The translations under genes were made by a program, and so were the position numbers. Shown here piece by piece: positions 2,124 through 64,000 of a stretch of 64,000 nt of DNA (the stretch's first letter is position 1; each line of letters starts with the position of its first letter). The DNA comes from Eledone cirrhosa (lineage: Eukaryota), in assembly GCA_964016885.1 (NCBI GenBank), contig OZ024765.1, positions 21,514,001 through 21,578,000 of the forward strand, written 5' to 3'. The notes under the pieces are model-generated. The model worked only from the letters and a program-made list of their open reading frames with translations, searched no databases and was not told where the DNA came from.

Positions 2124-4395
2124 TTAGATAAGGCGGGTCTTCTCTATTACTGAGTACCGCCAAAGGTCTCGGTCCAGTGACATTGTCTTGGAGAGGTGTA
2201 AGTGTGTGAGGTCGGAATTTATCAGCTCGTCCCAGGTTTTTCTGGGTCTGCCTACTCCGTGGCTACCGTCTATCTTTATTGCCCTGCACTTTGTTATACA
2301 GCTGTCGTCTTTCATGCGCATCACGTGACCATACCAACGTAGCCTTCTCTCGAGTAAACAACATCTGATCCCTCTTATTTCTAATTTTTTCCTTAGTTCG
2401 TTTATGCTTTGCCGTTCACGTATATTACTATTACACATCCAACGGAGCATGCAAGCTTCGTTTCTCTCTAGTCTGCGTATATCCTCTGCACACAATGCCC
2501 AGGTCTCACTGCCATGTAACATTGCTGTTCGTATGCAGGCATCATACAACCTGCCTTTCATTTTTAGGGAGAACCCTTTAGCGGCTAATAGTCGTATAAG
2601 CTCTCTGAACTTTTTCCATCCAGTTCTGACTCTACTGTACTTTCAGAGCACCCTCCCCCCACTGCTGATTTTGTCACCCAGGTAACGGAAGCTGTCCACT
2701 ATTTCTATAGAACCCTCTGCGCAGTTGAAAGAGTTAGTATTTTGTGGGCACTTGCTGCTACTTATTGCACCAGAGCACCGGCCACATGTAAAATCTATGT
2801 TCTTAGTTAGCTTACCTGTGATCCCACTACATCTTTTATGCACCCATACTTTGCATTTGGGACACAAAATGGAGTTTCTACCTACGCCTTTCCTACACAC
2901 TGAGCATGACCACTTCCCGGAAGGGACCGCCGCCTTATTTTCTTTCTTACAAACTAGAACTTTAGTCTTAGCCAGGTTAATTTTAAGGCCTTTTGATTCT
3001 AGGCCGTGCTTCCATGTTTGGAATTTCTTCTCTAGCTCGGCCATTGATTCAGCTATGAGTGTTAGGTCATCTGCGTATAGGAGTTCCCATGGGCAGCCGG
3101 TCTTGAACTCCTCTGTTATAGCCTGAAGGGCAATAATAAATAGTAGGGGGCTGAGAACGGAGCCCTGATGGACGCCAACCTTTACGCTAAACTCTTCACT
3201 ATATTCGTTGTTAATTCTAACCTTGCTGACTGTTTCTTTATACATGGCTTGTATAGCTCTCACAAGCCATTCGTCAACACCTTGTTTTCTAAGATCCCAC
3301 CAGATAATGGAACGGGGGACTCTGTCGAAAGCTTTCTCCAAGTCGACAAAAGCTAAGTATAGGGGTTTACTTTTAGCTAGGTACTTCTCCTGTAGTTGTT
3401 GTACAATGAAAAGAGCGTCTGTGGTACTTTTGCCTGACACAAACCCGAACTGCATTTCATCTAGATCAATTCTCTCTCTGATTAGTTGCGCTATTACTTT
3501 TTCCGTGACCTTCATGACCTGGTCGATTAATTTAATGCCTCTATAGTTACTCCTATCTAGAGCATCTCCTTTACCCTTATAACAGTTAACGATGATGCTG
3601 TTACGCCAGTCCTTCGGAACAACCCCATTCTGTACGACTTGGTTAACCATGGTGTGTCCCACTGTACCAGATGCCTTCAGCATCTCAGCAACTATTTCCG
3701 AAGGCCCAGCCGCCTTACCCGTCTTCATATCTTTGATTGCCTTACTTATTATACTACCCTCGACTAACACTGCTGGTCCCTCTATTGGGTCGATGTGGGG
3801 GAGACTGTCTTTCTCCCATTTATTCTCCTCATTTAGTAGCCTTTCGTAGTGACACTTCCAAGCTACCTTCTTATCAGCGTCAGTGATGGCAAGTACGCCG
3901 TCATCATTAAGTACACACTTCTCCCCGACAATATCACGGTTTTCCTTGACACATTGCCTAGCAATCCTGAACACCTCACGTTTTTGGTCCTCGCGTTGTA
4001 GAACATGCTTGAACTTTCTTTCCTCTGCTTCCCTTCTTGCAAAGTACACTTGTCTCCTAGCTTCCCTCCTGGCCACTTGATAGTCTTCTCTACTTCCCCC
4101 ATCCCGCCTTACTTTCCAAGCCTGCTTTTTGGCCGTAATTGACCCCTCCACCTTACTGTTCCACCACCATGTTACCCTCCTCCTGCCACAGACTTCGTCT
4201 GCCGCCATCAGCAGGTTTGCTTTCAGGAATTCCCACTGTTCCTCTATATTGTATGACTCTAATTGCTCTTCCTTACTGTCGAAAGCATCAAGTAGTATGC
4301 TTTTAAATTTATTTCTGGCTGTGGGGTCCTTTAGCTTCCATATTTTGTATGCTTTTAAATTTATTTCTGGCTGTGGTGTCCTTTAACTTCCATAT
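2124..4395 (-). mobile_element. RTE-clade LINE, 5'-truncated and frameshifted (RT + C-terminal region)
   Basis: ORFs 2643-4208 and 2124-2561 carry NYRGIKL, QFGF, FVDLEKAFDRVP, GVHQGSVLSPLLF, LLYADD and RRLRWYGHVMR...GRPRKTW. A ~50-bp direct duplication sits at the truncated end (4295-4395). Confidence 0.92.
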
Positions 4396-4418
4396 TTATA
4401 TATATATATATAGAGAGA

Positions 4419-5581: not shown

Positions 5582-5959
5582 TGTAGGGTAAATGAAATAT
5601 CTTGTTTATAGTTTGATGATATTTGATAATATATTGTTCTACAAGTTTGGTAGATCTTTTAAAGGCCAGCTTCAAGATGTTTTCGTTCTCTTAGACCGGT
5701 AATGTTTCTGCTATAAAATCTTGTATATATATCACATCTATAGTTTGTCTTCGATAACATACCGTATCTACAGTGCTGGTAATTTATCTAATGATTTGCT
5801 TCAAGATGTCCTCTCTCTCTCTCTCAATTTTTTTTTCATTCCTTGTATTTTGATCATGCTTTATTTTTATTTTTAATTTCATTCGCACCGTTTCCTTTCG
5901 CTATATGTCTCTCCCCCACTCCCCTACACACCCTTTGAACTCTGTTCCCACACACTTCT

Positions 5960-5993
5960 CACCTGAGGAAGGGCTTATGCCCGAAACGTCGTT
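5960..5993 (+). ncRNA. Minimal HHR core, family H3 (stem I degenerate)
   Basis: CTGAGGA a gggc-ttat-gccc GAAA cgtcg T t, followed by an aataaa-containing tail running to (TA)n at ~6083. Confidence 0.6.
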
Positions 5994-6112
5994 CCCCACC
6001 ACCACCCCACTCTCCAGAGCGTGAAATTAATAAACATTCGTTGTACTGCCTCTCTGTTTTGTCCCTGTTCAAATTTTTCCATTATATATATATATATACA
6101 TATGTGTGTGTG

Positions 6113-6931
6113 AATGAAGTAATTCCATCGGAAAAGTCCAGGAAAAAAGAGTGCTCTATGTAGGTAACAGAGCTTAATAGTTATGTAATAAACAACATAA
6201 GGCAATTATTCCATTTACCAGTGGTTTCTTAAAAGCAAAAAATGTTGCTTTCAATCATCAGAATGAATAAAATCCTGGTCTATTTATTGAATTGGATTTT
6301 AAAAAACCAATTTTAAAATCCAATTCAATAAATAGACCAGGATTTTATTCATTCTGATGATTGAAAGCAACATTTTTTGCTTTTAAGAAACCACTGGTAA
6401 ATGAAATAATTTTAAAATCCAATTCAATAAATAGACCAGGATTTTATTCATTCTGATGATTGAAAGCAACATTTTTTGCTTTTAAGAAACCACTGGTAAA
6501 TGGAATAATTTAAAAATCCAATTCAATAAATAGACCAGGATTTTATTCATTCTGATGATTGAAAGCAACATTTTTTGCTTTTAAGAAACCACTGGTAAAT
6601 GGAATAATTTTAAAATCCAATTCAATAAAGAGACCAGGATTTTATTCATTCTGATGATTGAAAGCAACATTTTTTGCTTTTAAGAAACCACTGGTAAATG
6701 GAATAATTTTAAAATCCAATTCAATAAATAGACCAGGATTTTATTCATTCTGATGATTGAAAGCAACATTTTTTGCTTTTAAGAAACCACTGGTAAATGG
6801 AATAATTTTAAAATCCAATTCAATAAATAGACCAGGATTTTATTCATTCTGATGATTGAAAGCAACATTTTTTGCTTTTAAGAAACCACTGGTAAATGGA
6901 ATAAATGCCTTATGTTGTTTATTACATAACT
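6113..6931. mobile_element. Family H4 element: one inverted HHR copy (6178-6304) plus six tandem 99-nt HHR units (6311-6905)
   Basis: CTGATGA at 6354, 6453, 6552, 6651, 6750 and 6849. Each unit reads ttattcatt CTGATGA ttgaaagc...gcttttaa GAAA ccactgg T A aatggaataa. The inverted copy has tcatcag at 6255. Confidence 0.85.
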
Positions 6932-7129
6932 ATATATATGCATTGCTGGAAGATCTTTGATAATATATGACACTATAAAACTTCGTTAGGTCATAAAACT
7001 TTGACGAGACATCAACATTAAATATTTCAGATTTCTGATATTCAAGATATTAGGAGAGGGTGGTGAGGAGAGGGTGGTGGGGAGAGGGGGTTGGGGGGGA
7101 GGGGGCAGAAGGGGGATCCTTACTTTGTG

Positions 7130-15177: not shown

Positions 15178-15465
<288 letters not shown>

Positions 15466-15879
15466 AATATATATATATATATATATACAATATGTTGAAA
15501 AGGTAACACACCAGAGAGAAATATACAGTGCGCTATCAATAAAACAGGGAAAAAAACCACCAGTGTATGGAATCTATAACCTATGAAAGGCAGAGTATAG
15601 ACACGATAATTAAAAATATAAATTAAAGCGTAAATAAATACCTCTATAACTATATAACACACGTACAAATCCAAAGAGATCTGTTTCGCCAGTAATTTGT
15701 TGACAGAAATGGAATAACCTCAGATCCTCATCGTGTGTAAGGCTATACATTTCAGACAACACTAAGAGAATTTTAAAAATCCATTGAGTGTGTTCTGTTA
15801 TTATTTCTGGCAATATTATTACAACAATATGACCCTCCCCAAGTATAACAATATATATATATATATATATTTATTTATA

Positions 15880-18530
15880 GCCTGTAGAAGGCTTAGTTAG
15901 CCTGAAGCAGCGCACAAGGCATGGTGAGGTAGTGTATCTACCCACGGATAAGTCTGGTAGGATGTCAATAGACAGCATGCCGAACTACATCAAGGCTATG
16001 CAACCCCACATCACCAACACGAGCGAAATTACACAACAAATACATGAGGGGAGAGAGAAGATCCTCAACGCTCACATGATGATGTGGACTGACATCCTAA
16101 AGCCAAGCAGACGCACTGCCAACAACTTCCAGGCGTCTAACAATGGCATACCACCCTTGTATGGGCTCCGCAAAGACCACAAGACAGTCGACGACCCGAC
16201 AACAGGACCACCAATAAGACCTGTATGCGGAGCCAATATAGCTAGTAACTACAGGATCTCCTACTTCCTCTCAATGGTTATACGCCCCATAATCAAGATG
16301 TCCCCAGATGTATGTGACAGTACAGAGGACCTCCTCAGCAGAATCAGTGAGTGCAACAAAAACAAGAACCTATCCAACTGCATAATAGGTAGTATGGATG
16401 TGGTATCACTGTACCCATCCATTAACATTGATTTTGCTGTGGAAAAATGTGTGGAGATGATCATTGAGAGTGAGGTGGAGTTCTGCGACGTCGACACAGA
16501 CCAACTGCGCCTCCTACTTAGACTTACCTACGACACTGACTACCTAGACAGCCATGATCTTAGCCGTTTCTTCCCCAGTAGACCCATAAGAGGTAGACCC
16601 CCCACCATAACCTCAATGGCAAAAAAGACTCCCATGGGAAGTGGATTGGGTGGACCAAAGCCATACGTACCCCTCAAAACAATGATCAGGTAAGAAAAAT
16701 GGTCGCGCATACAATAGGGGCTAGTATTAAAACTACCCTAAAGGGCCACATATTCAAATTCAACGAGAAGATCTACACCCAAAATGAGGGAGCAGCCATT
16801 GGCGTCAGCATAGCTGGTGACATTGCCAACCTTTTTATGATATGGTGGGAAAGGAAACTCAAAGATCTTGATGAGAGCTCCATAGACCTCACCGTGTACT
16901 CTCGTTACGTAGACGATATTAATATAGTAATAAGGACACCCCCACAAGAGAGTACTAACAAATATGATTTAGAATGTAGCACATCCAGAATGTAGCGCAT
17001 TTAGAATGTAGCATCCAGCAGATAGCTAACTCCATACACCAGAGTATAACTATAACTATTGACTACCCTTCCAAACACCCTAACAGTAGACTACCTGTAT
17101 TAGACACGGAACTCTGGATGAACACTATAGACGAGAGGGCCCAAATTCTCCACTCACACAATGCTAAACCCATGGACTCCAAATACCTGATACTCAAAAA
17201 CTCAGCAATGTCCAGTAGTGCTAAGTTTAATATTCTGATCGCAGACTTGGTACGAGTAATGAAGAATGTGTCCCGCATGTGCTACCCAACAGAAATGGAA
17301 AGACCCATCCAACACTTCATCAACCGCATGCAGTTCTCTGGCTACAACCAAAGAGACAGAGTCAGAGTATACGAAGGAGCCATGGAGAAGTATAAGACCC
17401 TCATAGAACTGGACATGAAAGGAATTTGCCCATTATACAGGAGCAAATCATGGAATAGCTTAGATAGGGTTAGACATAAGATAGGGAAAGCCACCTCATG
17501 GTACGACAACCAGAGATACCAGAGTGTCATGTTCGTGGAGGGAAATTAGCTAACCAGTGTAGAAAGGCCCTGAGAAAGACCCACTTAAAGATTAAAGTGG
17601 TAGAAAAGCCAGGAACTACCATAAAATCCCTGATCAGCAAAACATACCCTTTTAAGAAAACCCACTGTACTAATAGGAAATGTATTATATGTAAAGTAAA
17701 ACAGCGGATAAACTGTAAAACTAGAAACGAAGTATATAGCATAAGATGTACAGAGGGTACTTGCAGAAACATGACAACAACATCCATAGGCGAGACAGCT
17801 CGTAGCATAGGTGAAAGGATAGACCAACATTGCGGGGAATTAAAAGGACGAAAAAACGGTTCAGTACTATACGAATACGCCAGACAACAACACGACGGTA
17901 ACATAGACAACATAGAAATTAGAATAATATCTAAACATAGAAATGACCCAGCAGATAGGCAAATCAGAGAGGCCAGTGAAATAGAACTTAGAAAGCCAAA
18001 GCTAAACAGAAAAAAATGAATGGAATAACAACACCCAAACAAACAATACTCACCTTAGAGAAATATAAATAAATAAATATATACACAAGCACAATAAAAA
18101 CAAACACATATAAACACACAGTAGTAAACTAAGATAAAATACAATAACTAAAACACAGTCACCCAAACGCGAACACACACTAAACACTAGACACACACGC
18201 AAACGCACGCGCAGAGAAGAAGACAAAAAATAAATAAATAAATAAACATACAAAATAAAAATGGCGTAGATATACAATACAACAGGAGGAACATAATAGT
18301 ACCACTGATGATGTTGCAGATGTGCAACGAAAGAACTTTGTTAGACTATATATATGTGTTTGTGTCTATATTGTATCTGTACTTTTTACCGTTGGTCAGT
18401 CAATGGTAAACATTGAGGACCGAATGAATTAACTGATATAAAAGATACAGAAGCGGAAACCAACCAAACAGTGAGTGTGTTCTGTTATTAATTCTGGCAA
18501 TATTATTACAATATGAGCCTCCCCAAGTAT
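15880..18530 (+). mobile_element. Penelope-like retroelement (RT + GIY-YIG), decayed, with a 3' pLTR carrying an HHR
   Basis: PPLYGLRKDHK, PIRPVCG, SMDVVSLYPSI, IANLFM, YSRYVDD; GIY-YIG-like VYSIRC...IGETARSIGERIDQH...IREASEIELRKPKLN. Split by stops and frameshifts. The same tail also occurs upstream at 15785-15852. Confidence 0.9.
18297..18348 (+). ncRNA. HHR in the Penelope 3' pLTR
   Basis: CTGATGA t gttgca-gatg-tgcaac GAAA gaac T t tg. It shares gaaagaactttg with family H1. Confidence 0.75.
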
Positions 18531-21503: not shown

Positions 21504-21930
21504 AATAATTGTTTCTACTTTTGGCACAAGGCCAGCAATTACGCCAGTGTATTACTGGTACTTTATTTTATCGACCCCGTAATAATTGTTTCTACTTTGG
21601 GCACAAGGCCAGCAATTACGCCAGTGTATTACTGGTACTTTATTTTATCGACCCCGTAATAATTGTTTCTACTTTTGGCACAAGGCCAGCAATTACGCCA
21701 GTGTATTACTGGTACTTTATTTTATCGACCCCGTAATAATTGTTTCTACTTTGGGCACAAGGCCAGCAATTGCCCCAGTGTATTACTGGTACTTTATTTT
21801 ATCGACCCCCGTAAGGATGAAAGGCAAAGTTAACCTCGGCGGGATTTGAACTCAGAACGTAAAGGGCCATAACTCTATGCTACAAAGCATGGCGTCAGAT
21901 GCTCCACCGATACTGCCAATCCACCGCCAT
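21504..21930 (-). mobile_element. SINE family A with its 3' 77 bp present in 4 tandem copies
   Basis: Units start at 21504, 21581, 21658 and 21735. Confidence 0.9.
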
Positions 21931-26570: not shown

Positions 26571-26629
<59 letters not shown>

Positions 26630-26635
<6 letters not shown>

Positions 26636-26755
26636 TGTAATAAACAACATAAGATAATTATTTCTTTTACCAATGGTGTCTTGAAAGCAACCAAAATTGC
26701 TTTCATTCATCAGAATGAAAAAATCCTGGTGTCTTTATTGACTGTGGATTTGAAA
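26630..26755 (-). mobile_element. Degenerate family H4 copy (GAAA mutated to GACA)
   Basis: Reverse-complement match to 15350-15465. Confidence 0.7.
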
Positions 26756-26987
26756 TACAAAAATATAACAGATATGAAAGTGAGGCTGGAGGAAAAAAAG
26801 AAGGGGGGGGGGGGGGGGGGGGGGGTAATAAATAAGAATATATAACAACACACACGTACACACACTCACGCACATATACACATATATACATATATATACG
26901 CGTATATACACATATATATACACAGAGACACATATACACACACATACACACATATATATACACATATATCCATACATAAATACACCA

Positions 26988-31201: not shown

Positions 31202-31420
31202 AAAAGGTAAACAGAAATAACAACACAATCGGTACAGTATATGGAAGGGATATATTAGGTTAACGCTTGAAATAGCAGGAAGAGGGTTTTAATGTTTCGG
31301 GCGCTAGTCCTTCATCAGAAGAAAGAATGATAAATACGATAGATTGAAGGGACGAGTGGGGTGCAATTGGAAAAAATGTCTATAGATAAAAATAACAGGT
31401 CCATTCATGTTGACATCTCT
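31200..31420 (-). ncRNA. Second family H6 element (HHR at 31287-31322)
   Basis: Homologous to 28395-28610; CTGATGA aggac-tagc-gccc GAAA. Confidence 0.7.
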
Positions 31421-31422
31421 TG

Positions 31423-31492
<70 letters not shown>

Positions 31493-31494
<2 letters not shown>

Positions 31495-32595
31495 AAGAGG
31501 AAAAATATAGCACTGACTTTAGAAAGTACATTGAAAAATCTTGGAAGAGATACCTTGACGACTGTTTCATCATCTGGACAGAATCTCTAGATACTCTGGA
31601 TGAGTTCAATATTCTCCTGAATAACCTACACCCATCTCTCCAATTCACAAAAGAGATGAGTAGTACCAAATTACCATTCCTAGATATAATGGTAATCAAA
31701 AACGACACCACCATTACCACGGATATATATTATAAACACACAGACACCCATCAATATCTGAATTTTAAGTCGTTCCATCCACCTCATACAAAACACAACA
31801 TCCCATACTGCCTAGCCAGAAGAATCTGTACCATTGTAGAAGATACGAATACCAGGTACAAACGCCTAACAGAACTAAGAGAATTTTTGCTCAAACAAAA
31901 ATGCCTATCTCTACTTATAGAAAATGGCATACAGTGGGCTATAAAAATACCTATACAACAACTTAGGACAACCCAAGGAAGAAGAAACCAAGAACTGGTC
32001 ATACCATTTATAATGACACACAACCCATGTCACCAAAATATCTTCAACACTGCCAAAGCAAACCTACCGATCATTGCTCAAAGTAATGAATTAAAAGCCT
32101 TAATCACAGACCGATCTTTGACTCTTAATAAAAGACAGCCGAAAAATATGAAGCAATTACTAACAAAAGCAAAGTTTGACCTTAACAACATAGACCAATC
32201 ATTCACTGTATCTAAATGCAATGATAGTCGATGCGACATATGTCAATCCATACACACTAGTCAATATATGAACACAAAAACTGGAAAAAATATTCCCAAA
32301 TGCAAATATGAACTGCAAAAGCAGAAATCTAATTTACTGCATTAAATGCCCGAATTGTGAAGAACTATATGTCAGTCAAACTAGAAATGCACTATCGGAA
32401 GGTGCACGGGTGCACCGACAGCAAATCAGAGACCCAAATGTCCGTCAGATACCCCTAAGTAACCATCTAGCAACATGTGGTCAGAGAATATTTATAATAT
32501 TCCCATTCTACAAATTACACAGCCCAAGTGAAATCAAGAGAAAAATCAAAGAAAAGAATTTTATTGATAAATTCCAACCCAAGCTAAATGAATAA
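31493..32595 (+). mobile_element. Second Penelope-like element, 5'-truncated (RT 3' half, Cys linker, GIY-YIG)
   Basis: WKRYLDDCF, LPFLDI, YYKHTDTHQYL, CNDSRCDIC, NLIYCIKCPNC...YVSQT...KEKNFIDKFQPKLN. Frameshift near 32300. Confidence 0.9.
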
Positions 32596-33004: not shown

Positions 33005-34713
33005 TGATTCTACCACCCCGCTAAAGTGGCGACTACTCTACAACTAATACTGCTAAAACTATCATTGACGCGGTTCAAAATCAGACTGGGAGTATTTACT
33101 TTCTCGATGCTCCTGGGGGTACCGGAAACACTTTTGTAACGAAATTGATTCTCGCTAAGATTCGTTAGGAGAAAAAAATTGCGTTGGCCGTTGCATCGTC
33201 CGGGATCGCTGCTACTTTGCTCCCGGGAGACAGGACAGCACATTCAACCTTTAAACTCCCCTTGGATTTAGTAAAAACTGTGACACCAACATGCAATATC
33301 AACAAGAGCTCACACGAAGCTCTGGTTCTCAAAAAGTGTTGCCTCATTGTTTGGGATGAGTGCATAATGGTACACAAGGGTGCCCTTGAGGCATTGGACG
33401 GGACCCTGAAAGACATTAGGGATTCTACGGCTCCTATGGGTGGCGTAACCCTTCTGCTATCAGGGGATTTTCGGCAAACGCTGCCTGTCATCCCCAAAGG
33501 GACAAGAGCTGATGAAGTGCGTGCCTGCCTTAAGTCGTCCATGTTGTGGCCCCAGGTGAAGAGTTTGTACCTGAGCACAAATATGCGTGCTCATTTGCAT
33601 GGTGACAACATGTCTGCAGCATTTGCTCAGAACATTTTAGCACTTGGTGAGTGCAATGTCCCTGCGGATGATAAGGGCAGCATAGCAATCAACTCCCTGT
33701 GCAACATTGTGAGCAGCCCTTCTGACCTTTGGGAAGCAGTTTTTCCTAATGTCTCATCTAACCTTAAAAACCTCGATTAGCTCAGCGAAAGAGCCATCCT
33801 TGCTCCGAAAAATGCCATGGTTAATTTTATTAACGAGCAGCTGATTGAGAAGATTCCCGGTAAAGAGAACATCTTCAAATCTATCGACCGGGCGTCAGAC
33901 CCCGACGATATCATTAATTATCCGGTTGAGTTATTAAATTCCCTTGAGCCCCCAGGGCTCCCACCTCACATTCTTAAGCTTAGGGTTGGCTGTCCCATTA
34001 TGCTAATAAGGAACTTGCATCCACCAAAGCAGTGCAACGGTACTCGCATGGTCGTCAAGTCACTGACGCCCCACTTGATTGAGGCCACCAATGTAACGGG
34101 TGCGGGAGAAGGGAGAATGTTTTCATTCCAAGGATGAACCTTTTCCCCTCGGCGTCAGATATCCCGTTCGATTTCCGGCGATCCCAATTCCCGGTGAGAC
34201 CATGTTTTGCCATGTACGTTAACAAGTCACAAGGGCAAACATTGTCGGTGGCGGGCATCCATTTGGGGGAGCCATGCTTCTCTCATGGCCAACTTTGTGT
34301 TGCCTGTTCCCGCGTAGGGATCAGGAATGGACTTTTTGCTTACACTCCTCAAGGGATGACACGCAATATCGTCTACAAAGAGGTGCTATAGATGTTGGTG
34401 CAGGTGTTGGAGGTGTTGGAGCTATGCCGTCTGGAAAACTATTTCCTGGTAGGGTCACCCATAGCGGACAGATCTGACACCCAGCGGCATCAGGGCCACC
34501 ATCTTGCAATTTTGGTCTGCTAAATTCGCTATTGGAAGATTATTAACCCATCATTGATTGTCCAAAATGCTAATTGGTTCGTAACTTTTAATAACCGGTT
34601 CAAATGCTTTATGCACTTAATTGATAAACTTATTCGCTTTCAGGCCACGTTTACCTGTATGTAACTTTTCATAGCAAATGAACAAACCCGAGCAACGCCG
34701 GGCTAAACTGCTA

Positions 34714-37065: not shown

Positions 37066-37191
37066 AAAATGATATATATATCATAATCATCATCATCATC
37101 ATCATTTTACGTCCGCTCTTCTCTCTCTATATATAGAGAGAGAGATGGTATCTATCTAACTATCTACCTTTCTCTCCAATTATCTATCTAT

Positions 37192-39897
37192 CAGCAGTAC
37201 AGCTGATGTGCTAGTGGCGAGAACGGCACGAGACCAGTTCTTCAATGTAAAACACAAAGGTTGTATTGTCAGAAATAGAACACGTGCTCTAAGAAACGAG
37301 GGAGCCAAAGCTGTTAGCTGGGCCCAAGTGGCAGAGGCGAAAAGTGGCAACAAATCCACAATTCGGTCTTTGCAAGACAAAGATGGACGCATTATACTTG
37401 AATCCAAGCAGATGTGCACGGCCTTCCAGCAGCATTTTGCACAACTGTTCGGGCAAAGCGGTACATCGAGCGAGGTGATGGACTTCAGCTCCTACCTCGA
37501 CGGCGTTCCGTAACTCTCGAGCACGGATGCAGAGAGCTGCGAAAGGCCGATCACAGCGGGCGAAATAGAAGATGCCCTAGGCCGCTGCGGGAAATGCAAA
37601 TCACCCGGTTTAGATGGTCTGCCCTATGAGTTTTACATAGGCATGCCAGACTTGTTCTCTAGTGTCCTTGAAGCGGTCTACTGCAACTGGCAGCAGAACG
37701 AGAGGATTCCCAGTTCTGTAGGCAGAGACGTAGTAACGCTGATCAGGAAAGATGAGAACAAGGGGGATGAGATAAGCAATTTCAGGCCCATAACTCTGCT
37801 CAACACAGAGTTAAAGATTTTAGCCAAGGTGTTAGCAGCAAGGCTGGCACTTGTCGTCGAGAACCTGGTAGGGGAAGCCCAAATGTGTGCAATCCCGACC
37901 AGGTTCATACACGACAACCTCCACCTCATTCGATACATCATAGAGAGGGTAGGGTGTAAACCTGGCTTTGGTGGGGCTCTGATCAATTTAGATCAGTCTA
38001 AGGCATTTGATAGGGTCGACCATCAATACTTGGAAGCGGTTCTCAAGGTGGCCGGCTTCGGTCCCGTCTTCAGAGGCTGTATCGCTGCCATGCACACCAG
38101 CATCTGCTCGGCAGTCTAGGTGAATGGCTACCTATCAGAGCCATTCCAAATCATGCGTTCCATCCGTCAGGGATGCCCTCTCTCCTCCATTCTGTATGTA
38201 CTGACTCTCGAGCGGAAATTGGAGCTGTTGCAGGGCATCCCGATCGAACCAGGACTGCGGAAAGCAGCGTCAGCCTATGCCGACGACACAACAGTAATGG
38301 TGTCGAAAACCTCGGACATCAGGGTAAACGGCAACCTATTACAGGAATACGAAACGGTGACAGGAGCAAAACTAAACCCAAACAAGTCTGTCGGTTTGCA
38401 ACTCGGCACATGAAGAGGCAAACCCATGCCTTCCGACAGTGTCGTTGGACGCTGGACGGAAGGACCGGTGAAATTGCTTGGGGTCGGGTTCGGTCCAGAC
38501 CTCCAGGTGGACAAGAACTGGAACGAGGTCACGGCGAAGGTATTTGCACTTACCCAGAAGTGGGCTGAGTGCAAACTCTCCTTGAAAGGTCGAGCAGAGG
38601 TGGCGAACACTTACATAGCTTCCGTCATCTACTACCGCTTGACAGTCGTGCCTTGCCCCCGCGAATACCTTACCAAAATGGAACGCCTACTCTTCAAGTT
38701 CCTCTGGAAGAAACAGGCTCCATTGGTGAGGAGATCCATCTGCTGTCAACACCCTTCTAACGGAGGGCATGCCGTGGCTGATGATGCGCAAACATGCACT
38801 GAGGCTACGCTATCTCCAGGTATTCCTGACCGGTGAACCGGTGTGGCTGTCGTTTGTGAGACAAGCTCTTCCACAACTCATCTCACTAACAGAGCTGCAG
38901 TCCTGGGTCAAGCGAAGACCAAAAATGAGTGCCTGGCACCTCAAGTGCCTACAGGCGCTCACAGCCCTCTACCAAGCGGAAACGGCAATCAGCGGAGACT
39001 CTACTTCGACATTCTATAGGGGATTAGTGGAGGATAAGTGCGACGACGTTCTCGGGGAAACTCTAGGATTCGAGGAGGACGAACTGACCAGTCTGTTCGG
39101 GAGGACTTTCCATCCAGGACCAATGGATAACTTCCAGAAGTCTCTGGCCTGGCAGTGCTACCGAGGAGCTCTACCAGTTCAAGACAAAATCTACAGGCTC
39201 GGACGCCCTGGCAGAGATCCTGCCAAAAGGACCTGTCCAAGATACGAGCAGGACATCGAAACCGTTCTGCACACAATTGTTCAGTGCCCAGGGTTGACCG
39301 ACCTGTGGAATTATGTCGAACAGCTGGTGTCACATGTGGGACGCATCCAGTTGTCAGCCGAGTCCATCATGAGGATCACCCAGCCACCTTCATTTAAGAA
39401 CGAAGGAGAGGTGGTTTTCCTCTGTCTGGTGGCTATGGCGAAAGAGGTAATATGGTGGACGAGGTTAAAAGGACTGAGGGCAAACACCTTTCTCTCCAGA
39501 CAACAACTTATCCCCTTCTTTAAGTACCACTCCAGAAGGAAGGTGAGAGTGGAGAGAGAGGTGCTACACCCCAGTAAATTCACTGAAAGGTGGATGAATG
39601 TGGCAAAAATGGCCCGAGTGAATGGGCCTTCTCTGTATATAAACCTGTAGGTTGAGGAAGATAAACAGAGGGAAGACTGGAACACCTACAAAACGTGTTC
39701 CTGGTGTTGAGGGTTGTTCTATCCACGGGGTGTAAAACAACCCCGCAGTAACGTCCCCCCACCTATTGGGGATTTCAATTGTTATTTTATTATATATAGT
39801 TTATTGTTATTTATTAATGTTAAAGTTATTTTTATGTAAAACCCCCGCTGTCTTGTAATGTCCCATTTTTGTACGCCCCTGTGGCAAATAGAGAAAG
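37192..39897 (+). mobile_element. Tx1/L1-group LINE ORF2, 5'-truncated and decayed
   Basis: KSPGLDGLPYE, NFRPITLLNTELKILAK, DQSKAFDRVDH, IRQGCPLS, AYADD and a C-terminal CPRY...H...C knuckle. (TATC)-rich flanks on both sides. Confidence 0.9.
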
Positions 39898-52029: not shown

Positions 52030-52872
52030 GGAGGTGGATTGGCAGTATCGGTAGAGGGTCGGACGCCATGCTTTGACGCATAGAGTTACGGCCCTTTACA
52101 GTCTGAGTTCAAATTGATTGGCAGTATAGGTAGAGGGTCGGACGCCATGCTTTGACGCATAGAGTTACGGCCCTTTACAGTCTGAGTTCAAATTGATTGG
52201 CAGTATCGGTAGAGGGTCGGACGCCATGCTTTGACGCATAGAGTTACGGCCCTTTACAGTCTGAGTTCAAATTGATTGGCAGTATAGGTAGAGGGTCGGA
52301 CGCCATGCTTTGACGCATAGAGTTACGGCCCTTTACAGTCTGAGTTCAAATTGATTGGCAGTATCGGTAGAGGGTCGGACGCCATGCTTTGACGCATAGA
52401 GTTACGGCCCTTTACAGTCTGAGTTCAAATTGATTGGCAGTATAGGTAGAGGGTCGGACGCCATGCTTTGACGCATAGAGTTACGGCCCTTTACAGTCTG
52501 AGTTCAAATTGATTGGCAGTATAGGTAAAGGGTCGGACGCCATGCTTTGACGCATAGAGTTACGGCCCTTTACAGTCTGAGTTCAAATTGATTGGCAGTA
52601 TCGGTAGAGGGTCGGACGCCATGCTTTGACGCATAGAGTTACGGCCCTTGCCATTCTGAGTTCAAATCCCGCCGAGGTTAACTTTGCCTTTCATCCTTAC
52701 GGGGTCGATAAAATAAAGTACCAGTAATGCACTGGGGTAATTGCTGGCCTTGTGCCTAAAGTAGAAACAATTATTCTTTGCCTTTCATCCTTACGGGGTC
52801 GATAAAATAAAGTACCAGTAATACACTGGAGTAAATTGCTGGCCTTGTGCCTAAAGTAGAAACAATTATTAT
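52030..52872 (+). mobile_element. SINE A with 8 tandem 79-bp tRNA-like heads and a duplicated 3' part
   Basis: ggcagta starts at 52041, 52120, 52199, 52278, 52357, 52436, 52515 and 52594. Confidence 0.92.
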
Positions 52873-56991: not shown

Positions 56992-58299
56992 TCATCATCA
57001 TCATCAACGTTTAACGTCCGTGTTCCACGCTTGCATGGGTTTGGACGGGGATTTTCCCACTTGAGGCAAGAGTGGTTGTCTTGCTCGCATAGGACTGTCT
57101 GGCAGGTTTTCTACAGTTGGATGCCCTTCCTAACACCAACCACATTTACAGTGTGGGGCTGGGAGGTTTTTACCGTGTTGCCTACACGGCCACATTACAG
57201 CGTGGACTGTCTGGCGGGTTTTCTACAGCTGGATGCCCTTCCTAACACCAACCACATTTACAGTGTGGGGCTGGGAGGTTTTTACCGTGTTGCCTACACG
57301 ACCACATTACAGCGTGGACTGTCTGGCAGGTTTTCTACAGCTGGATGCCCTTCCTAACACCAACCACATTTACAGTATATATATATATATATATATAATA
57401 TGTATATGATATATATATACATATCTAATGTCTAAAGTCTGTCTTAAGCCATTGAAGGCTCATTTGGCCGGTGCTTGTCCCAGTTTCATGACATGAAGTG
57501 ACTGAGAGTACAAAACTCCCCCTGGATAGGACACCAGTCCATCACAGGATTAAACCCCCAGATATAGCTGGTACTCATGTTCAGCTGAGTATACTGGAGC
57601 AATGTGAAGTGAAGTGTTTTGCTCAAGAACACAACACGCAGCTCAGGAATCAAACCCACGATATTATGGTCAGAAGTTCAACGACCCTTACCACTTGGCC
57701 ACGCACGCCGAATATATATATATATATGGTGAAGTTGAGTGGCATAGTGGTTAGAGTGTTGCGTTTACAATTGTGAGTTCAATTCCCAGCCCAGGTGTTG
57801 TTTCCTTGAGCAAGACACTTTATTTCATATTGCTCCAGTTTACTCTGAGTTGCTGAGTTTCATTGTCTCTGTTGCCAAGCGGTATAAACCATTCACTTTC
57901 CTTGGGACAACATCATATATAGGGTATATATAATATATATGTAATGTATATATAGTGTATATACAGTTTATATAGAGTATATATATATATGCTGAAGCAT
58001 ATAAACAATATGCCCCCACACACCCCACCGCAAGGTGGTCGTGGAGGTGCCACGGCAAAAAAGCACCCAGCCCACACTGTAAAGTGGACGTGTAGGCGCC
58101 ACGAAAAAGCACCCAGCACTCACTGTAAATGAGGTTGGTGTTAGGAAGGGCATCCAGCTGTAGAAATCAAGCCAGAATCAGTTCCTGTATGAGCAAGGCA
58201 TGGTCAGCCGACCAGACACTGCCCACAACAGGACAGCCCGTCTAACCCATGCTAGCGTGGAAGAACGGACGTAAAACGGTGATGATGATGATGATGATG
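56992..58299. mobile_element. Cluster of CORE-like SINE copies (56992-57376 -, 57445-57708 -, 57728-57860 +, 58030-58299 +)
   Basis: Shared head, CORE-like or tail segments; the first copy has an internal tandem triplication. Confidence 0.75.
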
Positions 58300-61200
58300 A
58301 AAGTATATAGTTTATATAGAGTGTGTATATATAGTGTATATACAGTTTATATAGAGTGTGTATATATAAAGTATATACAGTTTATATAGAGTGTGTATAT
58401 ATAAAGTATATACAGTTTATATAGTGTGTATATATAAAGTATATACAGTTTATATAGTGTGTATATATAAAGTATATACAGTTTATATAGAGTGTGTATA
58501 TATAGTGTATATATAGTTTATATAGAGTGTGTGTATATAAAGTATATACAGTTTATATAGAGTGTGTATATATAGTGTATATACAGTTTATATAGAGTGT
58601 GTATATATAAAGTATATACAGTTTATATAGTGTGTATATATAGTGTATATACAGTTTATATAGAGTGTGTATATATAAAGTATATACAGTTTATATAGAG
58701 TGTGTATATATAAAGTATATACAGTTTATATAGAGTGTGTATATATAAAGTATATACAGTTTATATAGAGTGTGTATATATAGTGTATATACAGTTTATA
58801 TAGAGTGTGTATATATAAAGTATATACAGTTTATATAGAGTGTGTATATATAGTGTATATACAGTTTATAAAGAGTGTGTATATATAAAGTATATACAGT
58901 TTATATAGTGTGTATATATAGTGTATATACAGTTTATATAGAGTGTGTATATATAAAGTATATACAGTTTATATAGAGTGTGTATATATAAAGTATATAC
59001 AGTTTATATAGAGTGTGTATATATAGTGTATATACAGTTTATATAGAGTGTGTATATATAAAGTATATACAGTTTATATAGAGTGTGTATATATAGTGTA
59101 TATACAGTTTATAAAGAGTGTGTATATATAAAGTATATACAGTTTATATAGTGTGTATATATAGTGTATATACAGTTTATATAGAGTGTGTATATATAAA
59201 GTATATACAGTTTATATAGAGTGTGTATATATAAAGTATATACAGTTTATATAGAGTGTGTGTATATAAAGTATATACAGTTTATATAGAGTGTGTATAT
59301 ATAAAGTATATACAGTTTATATAGAGTGTGTATATATAGTGTATATACAGTTTATATAGAGTGTGTATATATAGTGTATATACAGTTTATATAGAGTGTG
59401 TATATATAGTGTATATACAGTTTATATAGAGTGTGTGTATATAGTGTATATACAGTTTATATAGAGTGTGTATATATAGTGTATATACAGTTTATATAGA
59501 GTGTGTATATATAGTGTATATACAGTTTATATAGAGTGTGTATATATAGTGTATATACAGTTTATATAGAGTGTGTATATATAAAGTATATACAGTTTAT
59601 ATAGAGTGTGTATATATAGTGTATATACAGTTTATATAGAGTGTGTATATATAGTGTATATACAGTTTATATAGAGTGTGTATATATAAAGTATATACAG
59701 TTTATATAGAGTGTGTATATATAGTGTATATACAGTTTATATAGAGTGTGTATATATAGTGTATATACAGTTTATATAGAGTGTGTATATATAAAGTATA
59801 TACAGTTTATATAGAGTGTGTATATATAGTGTATATACAGTTTATATAGAGTGTGTATATATAGTGTATATACAGTTTATATAGAGTGTGTATATATAAA
59901 GTATATACAGTTTATATAGAGTGTGTATATATAGTGTATATACAGTTTATATAGAGTGTGTATATATAAAGTATATACAGTTTATATAGAGTGTGTGTAT
60001 ATAGTGTATATACAGTTTATATAGAGTGTGTATATATAAAGTATATACAGTTTATATAGAGTGTGTATATATAGTGTATATACAGTTTATATAGAGTGTG
60101 TGTATATAGTGTATATACAGTTTATATAGAGTGTGTATATATAGTGTATATACAGTTTATATAGAGTGTGTATATATAAAGTATATACAGTTTATATAGA
60201 GTGTGTATATATAGTGTATATACAGTTTATATAGAGTGTGTGTATATAAAGTATATACAGTTTATATAGAGTGTGTGTATATAGTGTATATACAGTTTAT
60301 ATAGAGTGTGTGTATATAGTGTATATACAGTTTATATAGAGTGTGTGTATATAAAGTATATACAGTTTATATAGAGTGTGTATATATAGTGTATATACAG
60401 TTTATATAGAGTGTGTGTATATAAAGTATATACAGTTTATATAGAGTGTGTATATATAGTGTATATACAGTTTATATAGAGTGTGTATATATAAAGTATA
60501 TACAGTTTATATAGAGTGTGTATATATAGTGTATATACAGTTTATATAGAGTGTGTATATATAAAGTATATACAGTTTATATAGAGTGTGTATATATAGT
60601 GTATATATAGTATATATAGAGTGTGTATATATAGTGTATATAGAGTGTGTATATATAAAGTATATACAGTTTATATAGTGTGTGTATATATAGTGTATAT
60701 ACAGTTTATATAGAGTGTGTATATATAGTGTATATACAGTTTATATAGAGTGTGTATATATAGTGTATATACAGTTTATATAGAGTGTGTATATATAGTG
60801 TATATACAGTTTATATAGAGTGTGTATATATAGTGTATATACAGTTTATATAGAGTGTGTATATATAGTGTATATATAGTATATATAGAGTGTGTATATA
60901 TAGTGTATATAGAGTGTGTATATATAAAGTATATACAGTTTATATAGTGTGTGTATATATAGTGTATATACAGTTTATATAGAGTGTGTATATATAGTGT
61001 ATATACAGTTTATATAGAGTGTGTATATATAGTGTATATACAGTTTATATAGAGTGTGTATATATAGTGTATATACAGTTTATATAGAGTGTGTATATAT
61101 AGTGTATATACAGTTTATATAGAGTGTGTATATATAAAGTATATACAGTTTATATAGAGTGTGTATATATAGTGTATATACAGTTTATATAGAGTGTGTA

Positions 61201-63775
61201 TATATAAAGTATATACAGTTTATATAGAGTGTGTATATATAGTGTATATATAGTATATATAGAGTGTGTATATATAGTGTATATAGAGTGTGTATATATA
61301 AAGTATATACAGTTTATATAGTGTGTGTATATATAGTGTATATACAGTTTATATAGAGTGTGTATATATAGTGTATATACAGTTTATATAGAGTGTGTAT
61401 ATATAGTGTATATACAGTTTATATAGAGTGTGTATATATAGTGTATATACAGTTTATATAGAGTGTGTATATATAGTGTATATACAGTTTATATAGAGTG
61501 TGTATATATAGTGTATATACAGTTTATATAGAGTGTGTATATATAAAGTATATACAGTTTATATAGAGTGTGTATATATAGTGTATATATAGTATATATA
61601 GAGTGTGTATATATAGTGTATATAGAGTGTGTATATATAAAGTATATACAGTTTATATAGTGTGTGTATATATAGTGTATATACAGTTTATATAGAGTGT
61701 GTATATATAGTGTATATATAGTGTATATAGAGTGTGTATATATAGTGTATATACAGTTTATATAGAGTGTGTGTATATAGTGTATATACAGTTTATATAG
61801 AGTGTGTATATAGTGTATATACAGTTTATATAGAGTGTGTATATATAGTGTATATACAGTTTATATAGAGTGTGTATATATAAAGTATATACAGTTTATA
61901 TAGAGTGTGTATATATAGTGTATATACAGTTTATATAGAGTGTGTATATATAAAGTATATACAGTTTATATAGAGTGTGTATATATAGTGTATATATAGT
62001 ATATATAGAGTGTGTATATATAGTGTATATAGAGTGTGTATATATAAAGTATATACAGTTTATATAGTGTGTGTATATATAGTGTATATACAGTTTATAT
62101 AGAGTGTGTATATATAGTGTATATATAGTGTATATAGAGTGTGTATATATAGTGTATATACAGTTTATATAGAGTGTGTGTATATAGTGTATATACAGTT
62201 TATATAGAGTGTGTATATAGTGTATATACAGTTTATATAGAGTGTGTATATATAGTGTATATACAGTTTATATAGAGTGTGTATATATAAAGTATATACA
62301 GTTTATATAGAGTGTGTATATATAGTGTATATATAGTGTATATAGAGTGTGTATATATAAAGTATATACAGTTTATATAGAGTGTGTATATATAGTGTAT
62401 ATACAGTTTATATAGAGTGTGTGTATATAGTGTATATACAGTTTATATAGAGTGTGTATATATAGTGTATATACAGTTTATATAGAGTGTGTATATATAA
62501 AGTATATACAGTTTATATAGAGTGTGTATATACAGTTTATACAGTTTATATAGAGTGTGTATATACAGTTTATATACAGTTTATATAGAGTGTGTATATA
62601 CAGTTTATATACAGTTTATATAGAGTGTGTATATATAAAGTATATACAGTTTATATAGAGTGTGTATATATAGTGTATATACAGTTTATATAGAGTGTGT
62701 ATATATAAAGTATATACAGTTTATATAGAGTGTGTATATATAGTGTATATACAGTTTATATAGAGTGTGTGTATATAGTGTATATACAGTTTATATAGAG
62801 TGTGTATATATAAAGTATATACAGTTTATATAGAGTGTGTATATATAAAGTATATACAGTTTATATAGAGTGTGTATATATAGTGTATATACAGTTTATA
62901 TAGAGTGTGTATATATAAAGTATATACAGTTTATATAGAGTGTGTATATATAAAGTATATACAGTTTATATAGAGTGTGTATATATAGTGTATATACAGT
63001 TTATATAGAGTGTGTATATATAAAGTATATACAGTTTATATAGAGTGTGTATATATAGTGTATATACAGTTTATATAGAGTGTGTGTATATAGTGTATAT
63101 ACAGTTTATATAGAGTGTGTATATATAAAGTATATACAGTTTATATAGAGTGTGTATATATAAAGTATATACAGTTTATATAGAGTGTGTATATATAGTG
63201 TATATACAGTTTATATAGAGTGTGTATATATAAAGTATATACAGTTTATATAGAGTGTGTATATATAAAGTATATACAGTTTATATAGAGTGTGTATATA
63301 TAGTGTATATACAGTTTATATAGAGTGTGTATATATAAAGTATATACAGTTTATATAGAGTGTGTATATATAGTGTATATACAGTTTATATAGAGTGTGT
63401 GTATATAGTGTATATACAGTTTATATAGAGTGTGTATATATAAAGTATATACAGTTTATATAGAGTGTGTATATATAGTGTATATACAGTTTATATAGAG
63501 TGTGTATATATAAAGTATATACAGTTTATATAGAGTGTGTATATATAAAGTATATACAGTTTATATAGAGTGTGTATATATAAAGTATATACAGTTTATA
63601 TAGAGTGTGTATATATAAAGTATATACAGTTTATATAGAGTGTGTATATATAGTGTATATACAGTTTATATAGAGTGTGTATATATAAAGTATATACAGT
63701 TTATATAGAGTGTGTATATATAAAGTATATACAGTTTATATAGAGTGTGTATATATAGTGTATATATAGTGTATA
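58300..63775. repeat. 35-bp minisatellite, ~5.5 kb
   Basis: Unit gtatatacagtttatatagagtgtgtatatata(aa/gt), e.g. 58681 to 58716. Confidence 0.97.
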
Positions 63776-64000
63776 TAGTGTGTGTATATATATATATATA
63801 GACCACTGGTGATAAGCTGTCTGGACCATTGACTTTCCTTTGGACATCATATATAGTGTATATATAGTGTATATATAGTGTATATATAGTGTATATATAG
63901 TGTATATATAGTGTATATATAGTGTATATATATTGTATATATATTGTATATATAAAGTATATATATTGTATATATATAAAGTATATATAATGTATATATA

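What the first reader, a model, noticed from the sequence alone, without database searches (positions are those of the whole stretch)
6311..6905. Six tandem 99-nt units, each a complete hammerhead: candidate ultra-small retrozyme or circRNA cassette
Seen: exact 99-nt period and near-identical units. Each has stem I ttattcatt/aatggaataa, stem II ttgaaagc/gcttttaa, near-palindromic stem III acca-c-tggt and a GUA site, with predicted cuts after 6399, 6498, 6597, 6696, 6795 and 6894. An inverted seventh copy lies upstream and a monomer of the family is at 15283-15465. Inference: read-through transcription would release five 99-nt monomers with circularisable ends, shorter than described animal retrozyme units as I recall them. 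The short stem III would favour dimeric cleavage, which a tandem layout provides. Caveat: other TE sub-modules here are also tandemly amplified, so plain DNA slippage is a real alternative.
Basis: partly seen in the sequence, partly recalled or inferred. Interest (0 to 1): 0.85.

Follow-up and report, generated by a model that had tools for sequence, protein, structure and literature searches.

The report
Stuttered ribozyme end of Penelope transposon
Six head-to-tail copies of a hammerhead-ribozyme motif lie in one short insertion of a known kind of jumping gene and this repeat occurs at no other place in the genome, so it is likely a one-off local copying stutter rather than a new mobile circular-RNA family, though it shows how such families are thought to begin.

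Summary
But the 99-nt unit is not a family. Its sequence is the pseudo-LTR end of a Hydra-clade Penelope-like retrotransposon (711-aa RT + GIY-YIG ORF in full copies; 5,012 exact matches to one 25-mer genome-wide). The locus is an ordinary short tail-to-tail insertion into (TA)n whose right arm was repeated six times. The unit junction (5 hits) and a private T>A marker (7 hits) occur only at this locus in 3.0 Gb. The junction lies 10 nt past the cleavage site, on a 4-nt microhomology, so ribozyme cutting and ligation did not make it. Ribozyme-free repeat pieces of 72-117 nt are tandemly amplified in the same window. Folding does favour dimeric stem III pairing between neighbours, so a transcript could be cut, but nothing here tests expression or cleavage. 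Predicted animal retrozyme units of 51-972 bp are already in print, so 99 nt is no record. Verdict: a nascent, single-locus retrozyme-like array born from a Penelope end; modest interest.

The parts
6081..6114 (.). (TA)n/(TG)n microsatellite, left target flank of the insertion
   Evidence: sequence; family copies sit in (TA)n
6115..6176 (-). about 62-nt 'tail' of the Penelope-like pseudo-LTR, present on the left arm only; in full elements this is the leader between the hammerhead and the ORF
   Evidence: 99% match to L058:2723-2827 upstream of an intact ORF
6177..6307 (-). inverted pseudo-LTR arm with one hammerhead (core starts 6261, predicted cut between 6216 and 6215); carries the locus-private T>A marker
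6308..6312 (.). inversion junction; AATT at 6309-6312 repeats the AATT at the unit end (4-nt microhomology); the arms meet at a TTTTAAAA palindrome where 23 of 33 other arms are 5'-truncated
   Evidence: sequence
6311..6904 (+). six 99-nt units, each a type I hammerhead (cores at 6354, 6453, 6552, 6651, 6750, 6849; predicted cuts after 6399, 6498, 6597, 6696, 6795, 6894); each also holds a small AU-rich hairpin and an AATAAA
6905..6933 (+). unrepeated short 3' end of the pseudo-LTR (no tail), running into (TA)n
15287..15470 (+). separate insertion of an older subfamily: inverted tail piece plus truncated pseudo-LTR with one hammerhead (core 15386)
26629..26790 (-). separate older copy with a mutated hammerhead core

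Best explanation
The array is the hammerhead-bearing end of a Hydra-clade Penelope-like retrotransposon, inserted here as a short tail-to-tail pair, whose right arm was likely repeated six times by local template slippage at or soon after insertion; the repeat exists at this one locus and has no known function. Shown: family identity, link to an intact RT + GIY-YIG ORF, inverted architecture, uniqueness of the junction and of the private marker, junction position. Inferred: reverse transcription began at the family's two usual 3' ends and stopped at the TTTTAAAA palindrome, which let the cDNA fold back and give the second arm; the growing strand then realigned from the AATT 10-12 nt past the cleavage site to the AATT at the inversion junction, repeatedly or once followed by unequal exchange. 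If a + strand transcript crossed the array, neighbouring units would be predicted to form dimeric hammerheads and release 99-nt pieces at low efficiency, as a by-product.
For: Family: 5,012 exact 25-mer matches genome-wide; the same hammerhead flanks 710-711-aa ORFs with RWK, DKT, YRDD, CxCx5C, CxxC..E and N..CxH, the Hydra-clade marks of PMC8557442 section 11; its supplement lists Hydra-1_Obim with a hammerhead of the same stem III type, acca-a-tggt. Architecture: 13 of 26 other loci examined also have an inverted arm or inverted tail piece within 1.5 kb; inverted 5'-truncated copies and one-ended tails are standard for these elements (PMC8557442). Uniqueness: junction 30-mer with 1 mismatch allowed, 5 hits, all here; private marker 29-mer, 7 hits, all here; direct tandem pairs at periods 72-222 nt exist at only 4 other loci, each two-copy with different ends, two of them separate subfamilies nested in (TA)n. 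Junction is 10 nt 3' of the cut. Units share no change against the inverted arm and carry 3 singletons in 594 nt, a load like that of the unrepeated parts. Background: hammerhead-free arrays in the same window of 72 nt x16, 77 x4, 79 x8, 112 x2.5 and 114-117 x3.
Against: A six-copy array in which every unit is a whole hammerhead, in a family of thousands where nothing else exceeds two copies, is unusual, and the unit ends fit the ribozyme closely. The microhomology is only 4 nt and its AA could equally be the stub of a seventh round of copying. Dating rests on four substitutions and cannot separate insertion-time from later amplification. The tandem searches needed exact 14+14-nt anchors and covered periods 72-222 only, so diverged or longer arrays would be missed. 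No expression data could be examined.
Confidence: 0.72

Rival explanations
1. The element's own reverse transcriptase made the array during the insertion by copying the same 99-nt stretch over and over (reiterative realignment, as its relative telomerase does), so all six units were born in one event.
For: Star-like units with no shared change and a mutation load like the unrepeated arm; the unit starts at the family's truncation and inversion hot spot (23 of 33 arms); other copies show duplications or switches at the same junction (L010, L022, L040, L062); Penelope RTs are closest to telomerase RT (PMC8557442 abstract).
Against: Only one such array among about 5,000 copies; ordinary DNA-level arrays are common nearby; four substitutions give no real clock. 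This overlaps with the best explanation and differs only in enzyme and timing.
Confidence: 0.15
2. A mobile or functional 99-nt retrozyme: the array is transcribed, self-cleaves, circularises, and rolling-circle reverse transcription of the circle made this array and would make others.
For: Meets the operational definition of an 'active' non-LTR retrozyme in bioRxiv 10.64898/2026.07.22.740005 (two or more consecutive units with full motif, MFE below -5; here -10.4); dimeric stem III is in the minimum-energy fold and single active cores lie 0.4-1.0 kcal/mol above it; an autonomous partner with intact ORFs is in the genome.
Against: Junction and marker unique to the locus; junction not at the cleavage site; the array runs on into unrepeated family sequence at its 3' end; U-A at 10.1-11.1; minimal Penelope hammerheads cut poorly even as dimers or trimers (PMC4209133), and 8 of 9 predicted Xenopus dimers did not cut; no host exon seen in the window, T-runs argue against Pol III, each unit has AATAAA, and the antisense arm would pair with one unit.
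Confidence: 0.06
3. The number of copies is an assembly artefact at a palindromic, repetitive locus (true locus has one or two units).
For: Inverted repeats and microsatellites trouble assemblies; no listed short-read contig spans the array.
Against: Three different singleton changes among units; clean 99-nt register; both unique flanks are confirmed without differences in an independent run at depth about 4.8, which supports the locus though not the count.
Confidence: 0.07

Closest known systems
Hydra-clade Penelope-like elements, nearest listed member Hydra-1_Obim (Craig et al. 2021, PMC8557442)
   Same: RWK, DKT, CxCx5C linker, CxxC and CxH in the endonuclease, (TA)n targets, hammerhead near the end with palindromic stem III acca-n-tggt, inverted truncated copies and one-ended tail; ORF plainly collinear with Hydra-1_Obim by eye.
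   Different: A different family: three 12-nt or 6-aa motifs of it were absent from the supplement; tandem unit about 4.3 kb with a microsatellite-rich 3' UTR rather than under 3 kb; tail about 62 nt rather than 30-40; the six-fold repeat of the hammerhead is not a family feature.
Minimal type I hammerheads of metazoan Penelope-like elements (Cervera and de la Pena 2014, PMC4209133)
   Same: Long helix II, short palindromic helix III, predicted dimeric action, location in pseudo-LTRs, close opposite-strand pairs.
   Different: U-A instead of the conserved G10.1-C11.1 pair; here six copies 99 nt apart instead of two about 3 kb apart.
Non-LTR retrozymes of animals (Cervera and de la Pena 2020, PMC7229834; Li et al. 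2026, bioRxiv 10.64898/2026.07.22.740005)
   Same: Short AT-rich tandem units each with a type I hammerhead; Li et al. propose exactly this origin, a Penelope terminal sequence amplified locally in tandem.
   Different: One locus, not a dispersed family of the same unit; no expression or circles shown; 99 nt is below the expressed 170-400 nt range but within the predicted 51-972 bp range; still embedded in its parent insertion.

Membership tests
Type I hammerhead (Penelope minimal type) | Core CUGANGA, GAAA, NUH triplet in order | tested here: met
   position 7 varies T/G/A across family copies while the rest of the core holds
Type I hammerhead (Penelope minimal type) | Helices I and II form; helix III short and palindromic | tested here: met
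Type I hammerhead (Penelope minimal type) | G10.1-C11.1 pair | tested here: not met
   first stem II pair is U-A; pair described as highly conserved in PMC4209133
Type I hammerhead (Penelope minimal type) | Self-cleavage | not testable with these tools
   indirect look: 1 of 21 ORF-bearing copies has its 5' end at the cut, 13 extend upstream of it, 7 start downstream: no pile-up
Hydra-clade Penelope-like element (parent family) | Single ORF, RT then GIY-YIG-type endonuclease, with RWK, DKT, CxCx5C, CxxC, CxH | tested here: met
   3 of 3 intact ORFs checked; Pfam and PDB gave no useful match
Hydra-clade Penelope-like element (parent family) | Pseudo-LTRs with hammerhead, partial tandems, inverted truncated copies, tail, (TA)n target | tested here: met
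Hydra-clade Penelope-like element (parent family) | Placement in the clade by RT phylogeny | not tested
   motifs and by-eye comparison with the supplement alignment only
Non-LTR retrozyme | Two or more consecutive tandem units with complete type I hammerhead, MFE below -5 kcal/mol (Li et al.) | tested here: met
Non-LTR retrozyme | Same unit spread to many loci as a mobile family | tested here: not met
Non-LTR retrozyme | Expressed as linear and circular RNA | not testable with these tools
   no RNA holder listed; not evidence either way
Non-LTR retrozyme | Canonical hammerhead with loop 1-loop 2 tertiary contacts | not tested
   not modelled; loop 2 is variable and U-rich across copies

The most novel reading that the evidence does not exclude
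The array records one insertion event in which a Penelope-type reverse transcriptase recopied the same 99-nt stretch six times, telomerase-style, and so created in one step a hammerhead multimer able to shed 99-nt circles: the birth of a retrozyme caught while still inside its parent insertion, smaller than any animal retrozyme RNA shown to be expressed in the papers read.
Probability: 0.15. Interest if true: 0.68.

Novelty: new member of a known kind. Interest (0 to 1): 0.3.

Why it matters
Ribozyme-bearing satellite repeats in animals are proposed to arise from the ends of Penelope-like elements, on co-occurrence and tree evidence from vertebrates. This locus shows that step directly at one invertebrate site: parent element, inverted arm, private marker and junction are all readable, and allele surveys can tell insertion-time copying from later slippage. 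It also warns that scans counting any tandem hammerhead as an active retrozyme will include one-off stutters. As a functional RNA cassette it has no support so far.

Tried and rejected
Rfam at gathering thresholds: 0 matches. Pfam on the ORF pieces and on an intact ORF, and PDB by sequence: nothing informative. Sequencing runs: no RNA holder listed, which says nothing on expression; reads and contigs laid are dominated by other family copies, and array copy number from reads was left open. Idea that ribozyme cleavage sets the 5' ends of full elements: 1 of 21 copies (L058) starts at the cut; one of 22 stretches (L091) gave no usable alignment; rejected as not above chance. Idea that the T-run where units begin is the transcript start: only 1 of those 21 starts near it. 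Idea that 15283-15465 is the family monomer: rejected, its first 59 nt are the inverted tail. In the hammerhead alignment one of 20 rows (L055_x) was given on the wrong strand and is ignored; no formal covariation count was run, since the copies are too close. Fully formed double hammerhead has a negligible nearest-neighbour probability (1e-6) while each single dimeric core has 0.03-0.08; the model ignores core tertiary energy. Earlier scan notes: nothing on this genome or sequence, one unrelated note. Paper searches listed no paper on this family's tandem array; supplements of the bioRxiv paper could not be seen and may list units of similar size.

Full report
Observation. The window is a repeat-rich stretch of a 3.0-Gb animal genome; by recall its short interspersed repeats look cephalopod, which I did not test. 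TRF finds period 99, 6.0 copies, 98% matches at 6309-6904. Every unit holds CUGAUGA, an 8-10 bp stem II, GAAA, ACCA-C-UGGU and GUA, with predicted cuts after 6399, 6498, 6597, 6696, 6795 and 6894. Two of 200,000 shuffles of a unit met the descriptor. An inverted copy lies at 6304-6180 and older copies at 15344-15466 and 26755-26632. Rfam lists nothing at gathering thresholds. The first stem II pair is U-A, where PMC4209133 reports a highly conserved G-C.

What the sequence belongs to. A search of the own genome with the last unit gave 1,667 candidates, 40 scored; one exact 25-mer of the hammerhead occurs 5,012 times. Longer copies run upstream through a microsatellite-rich region to RT and endonuclease frames (L031). 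A protein search gave 150 listed matches, many in open frames of 714-715 codons. In four fetched regions the same hammerhead precedes and follows 710-711-aa ORFs, in partial tandems of about 4.3 kb or with an inverted copy; the window's arm and tail match L058 at 99% over 105 nt just upstream of an intact ORF. The three ORFs checked carry RWK, DKT, YRDD, CxCx5C, CxxC..E and N..CxH, the marks given for the Hydra clade of Penelope-like elements in PMC8557442 section 11. That paper's supplement lists Hydra-1_Obim, whose protein is collinear by eye and whose hammerhead has the same stem III type; our motifs were not found in it, so this is another family of the clade.

The locus. Read as a whole, 6115-6933 is tail, inverted arm, junction, six units, short 3' end, in (TA)n. 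Of 26 other loci examined (30 fetched, minus two of this locus and two duplicates), 13 show an inverted arm or tail piece within 1.5 kb, and 23 of 33 arms are cut off within 12 nt of the T-run where the array unit begins. That place reads TTTTAAAA, a palindrome, which I infer lets the cDNA fold back. Inverted truncated copies and a tail at one end are the normal build of these insertions (PMC8557442 passages), and two RT start sites explain the tail (PMC11167929 passages).

Is the 99-nt unit a family? No. The junction 30-mer with one mismatch allowed has 5 hits, all here. A T>A change in stem I is in 0 of 67 other copies fetched and a 29-mer holding it has 7 hits, the six units and the inverted arm. 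Searches for two family hammerheads in direct tandem at periods 72-222 nt found this locus and four others: L040 (rearranged, first copy partial), L062 (147-nt dimer at an inversion junction), L063 and L064 (different subfamilies nested in (TA)n). None has more than two copies or these ends. These searches need exact anchors and miss diverged or longer arrays.

How it likely arose. The new joint lies 10 nt past the cleavage site, so it was not made by cleavage and ligation. The AATT at the unit end recurs at the inversion junction (6309-6312). Units share no change against the inverted arm and have three singletons in 594 nt, with one more at 6905; the arm and tail carry one further change, at a CpG. 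So the array is about as old as the insertion, within wide error. Hammerhead-free pieces are amplified the same way nearby: 72 nt x16 at 4418, 77 x4 at 21504 (unit dispersed 9 times elsewhere in the window), 79 x8 at 52037, 114-117 x3 at 52865, 112 x2.5 at 57092. Local slippage at or soon after insertion is the simplest account; whether the element's RT or a host polymerase slipped cannot be told here.

Would it cleave? In a two-unit fold the palindromic stems III pair between neighbours in the minimum-energy structure (z -3.5 against shuffles); the two single dimeric cores lie 0.4 and 1.0 kcal/mol above it, while a monomeric core inside the dimer is 8 kcal/mol above. Against efficient cutting: minimal Penelope hammerheads show low activity even as dimers and trimers (PMC4209133); 8 of 9 predicted Xenopus dimers gave no product; cleavage was not needed for transposition of an Anolis element in vitro (PMC11167929); and only 1 of 21 ORF-bearing copies begins at the cut. 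No host exon was evident among the window's open frames, each unit has AATAAA and T-runs, and a transcript from the left would pair the antisense arm with one unit. No RNA run was listed, which is no evidence either way. An independent contig set confirms both unique flanks at depth about 4.8 but no piece spans the array.

Comparison and novelty. It works like a non-LTR retrozyme in layout and meets the scan definition of bioRxiv 10.64898/2026.07.22.740005 (parts 1-3 of 5 read; supplements not seen), which reports consensus lengths of 51-972 bp, 98 bp on average in one lineage, and proposes local tandem amplification of a Penelope end as the origin. It fails the family test of spread to other loci and is untested for expression; expressed animal retrozymes in PMC7229834 (passages) are 170-400 nt. 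PMC4209133 was read in parts 1-2 of 4; PMC8557442 in abstract, passages, sections 11-12 and supplement searches; PMC11167929 in passages. Five searches listed no paper on this array. Verdict: new member of a known kind, a single-locus retrozyme-like array still inside its parent Penelope insertion; interest 0.3.

Noticed in passing
L059:5294-5363, L060:4076-4145 and 8398, L051, L048, L063:2947 (-): Full-length copies carry a second hammerhead-like motif about 400-430 nt after the ORF stop, with an intact core but GUG at the cleavage triplet. It could act as an uncleavable partner that supplies the core or stem III to cut only the pseudo-LTR site; untested.
   Followed up: partly
window 5830-6080: End of a different very high-copy repeat with a minimal hammerhead-like core at 5963-5990 and AATAAA at 6029; the insertion studied sits in the microsatellite at its end.
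   Followed up: no
window 14 (+), 49804 (-), 31064 (+), 28511 (-), 26473 (+), 13500 (-): Six further hammerhead-like motifs of other repeat families found by the motif scan.
   Followed up: no
window 15881-18016 and 31386-32592: Broken RT and GIY-YIG-like frames of two other Penelope-like elements; also RTE-like (2127-4382), helicase-like Helitron pieces (33169-34388) and an L1/Tx1-like frame (37160-39647), named by eye from translations.
   Followed up: no
L058:2723: One intact element begins within 2 nt of the hammerhead cut site, a possible trace of in vivo cleavage, but 1 of 21 is not above chance.
   Followed up: yes
G000: The parent family has many open frames of 714-715 codons at 90-93% protein identity, suggesting a recent or ongoing burst.
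   Followed up: partly
window 52037-52667, 21504-21814, 58304-63800: Other young tandem arrays: 79 nt x8 and 77 nt x4 of short interspersed repeat pieces, and a 35-nt x157 minisatellite.
   Followed up: partly
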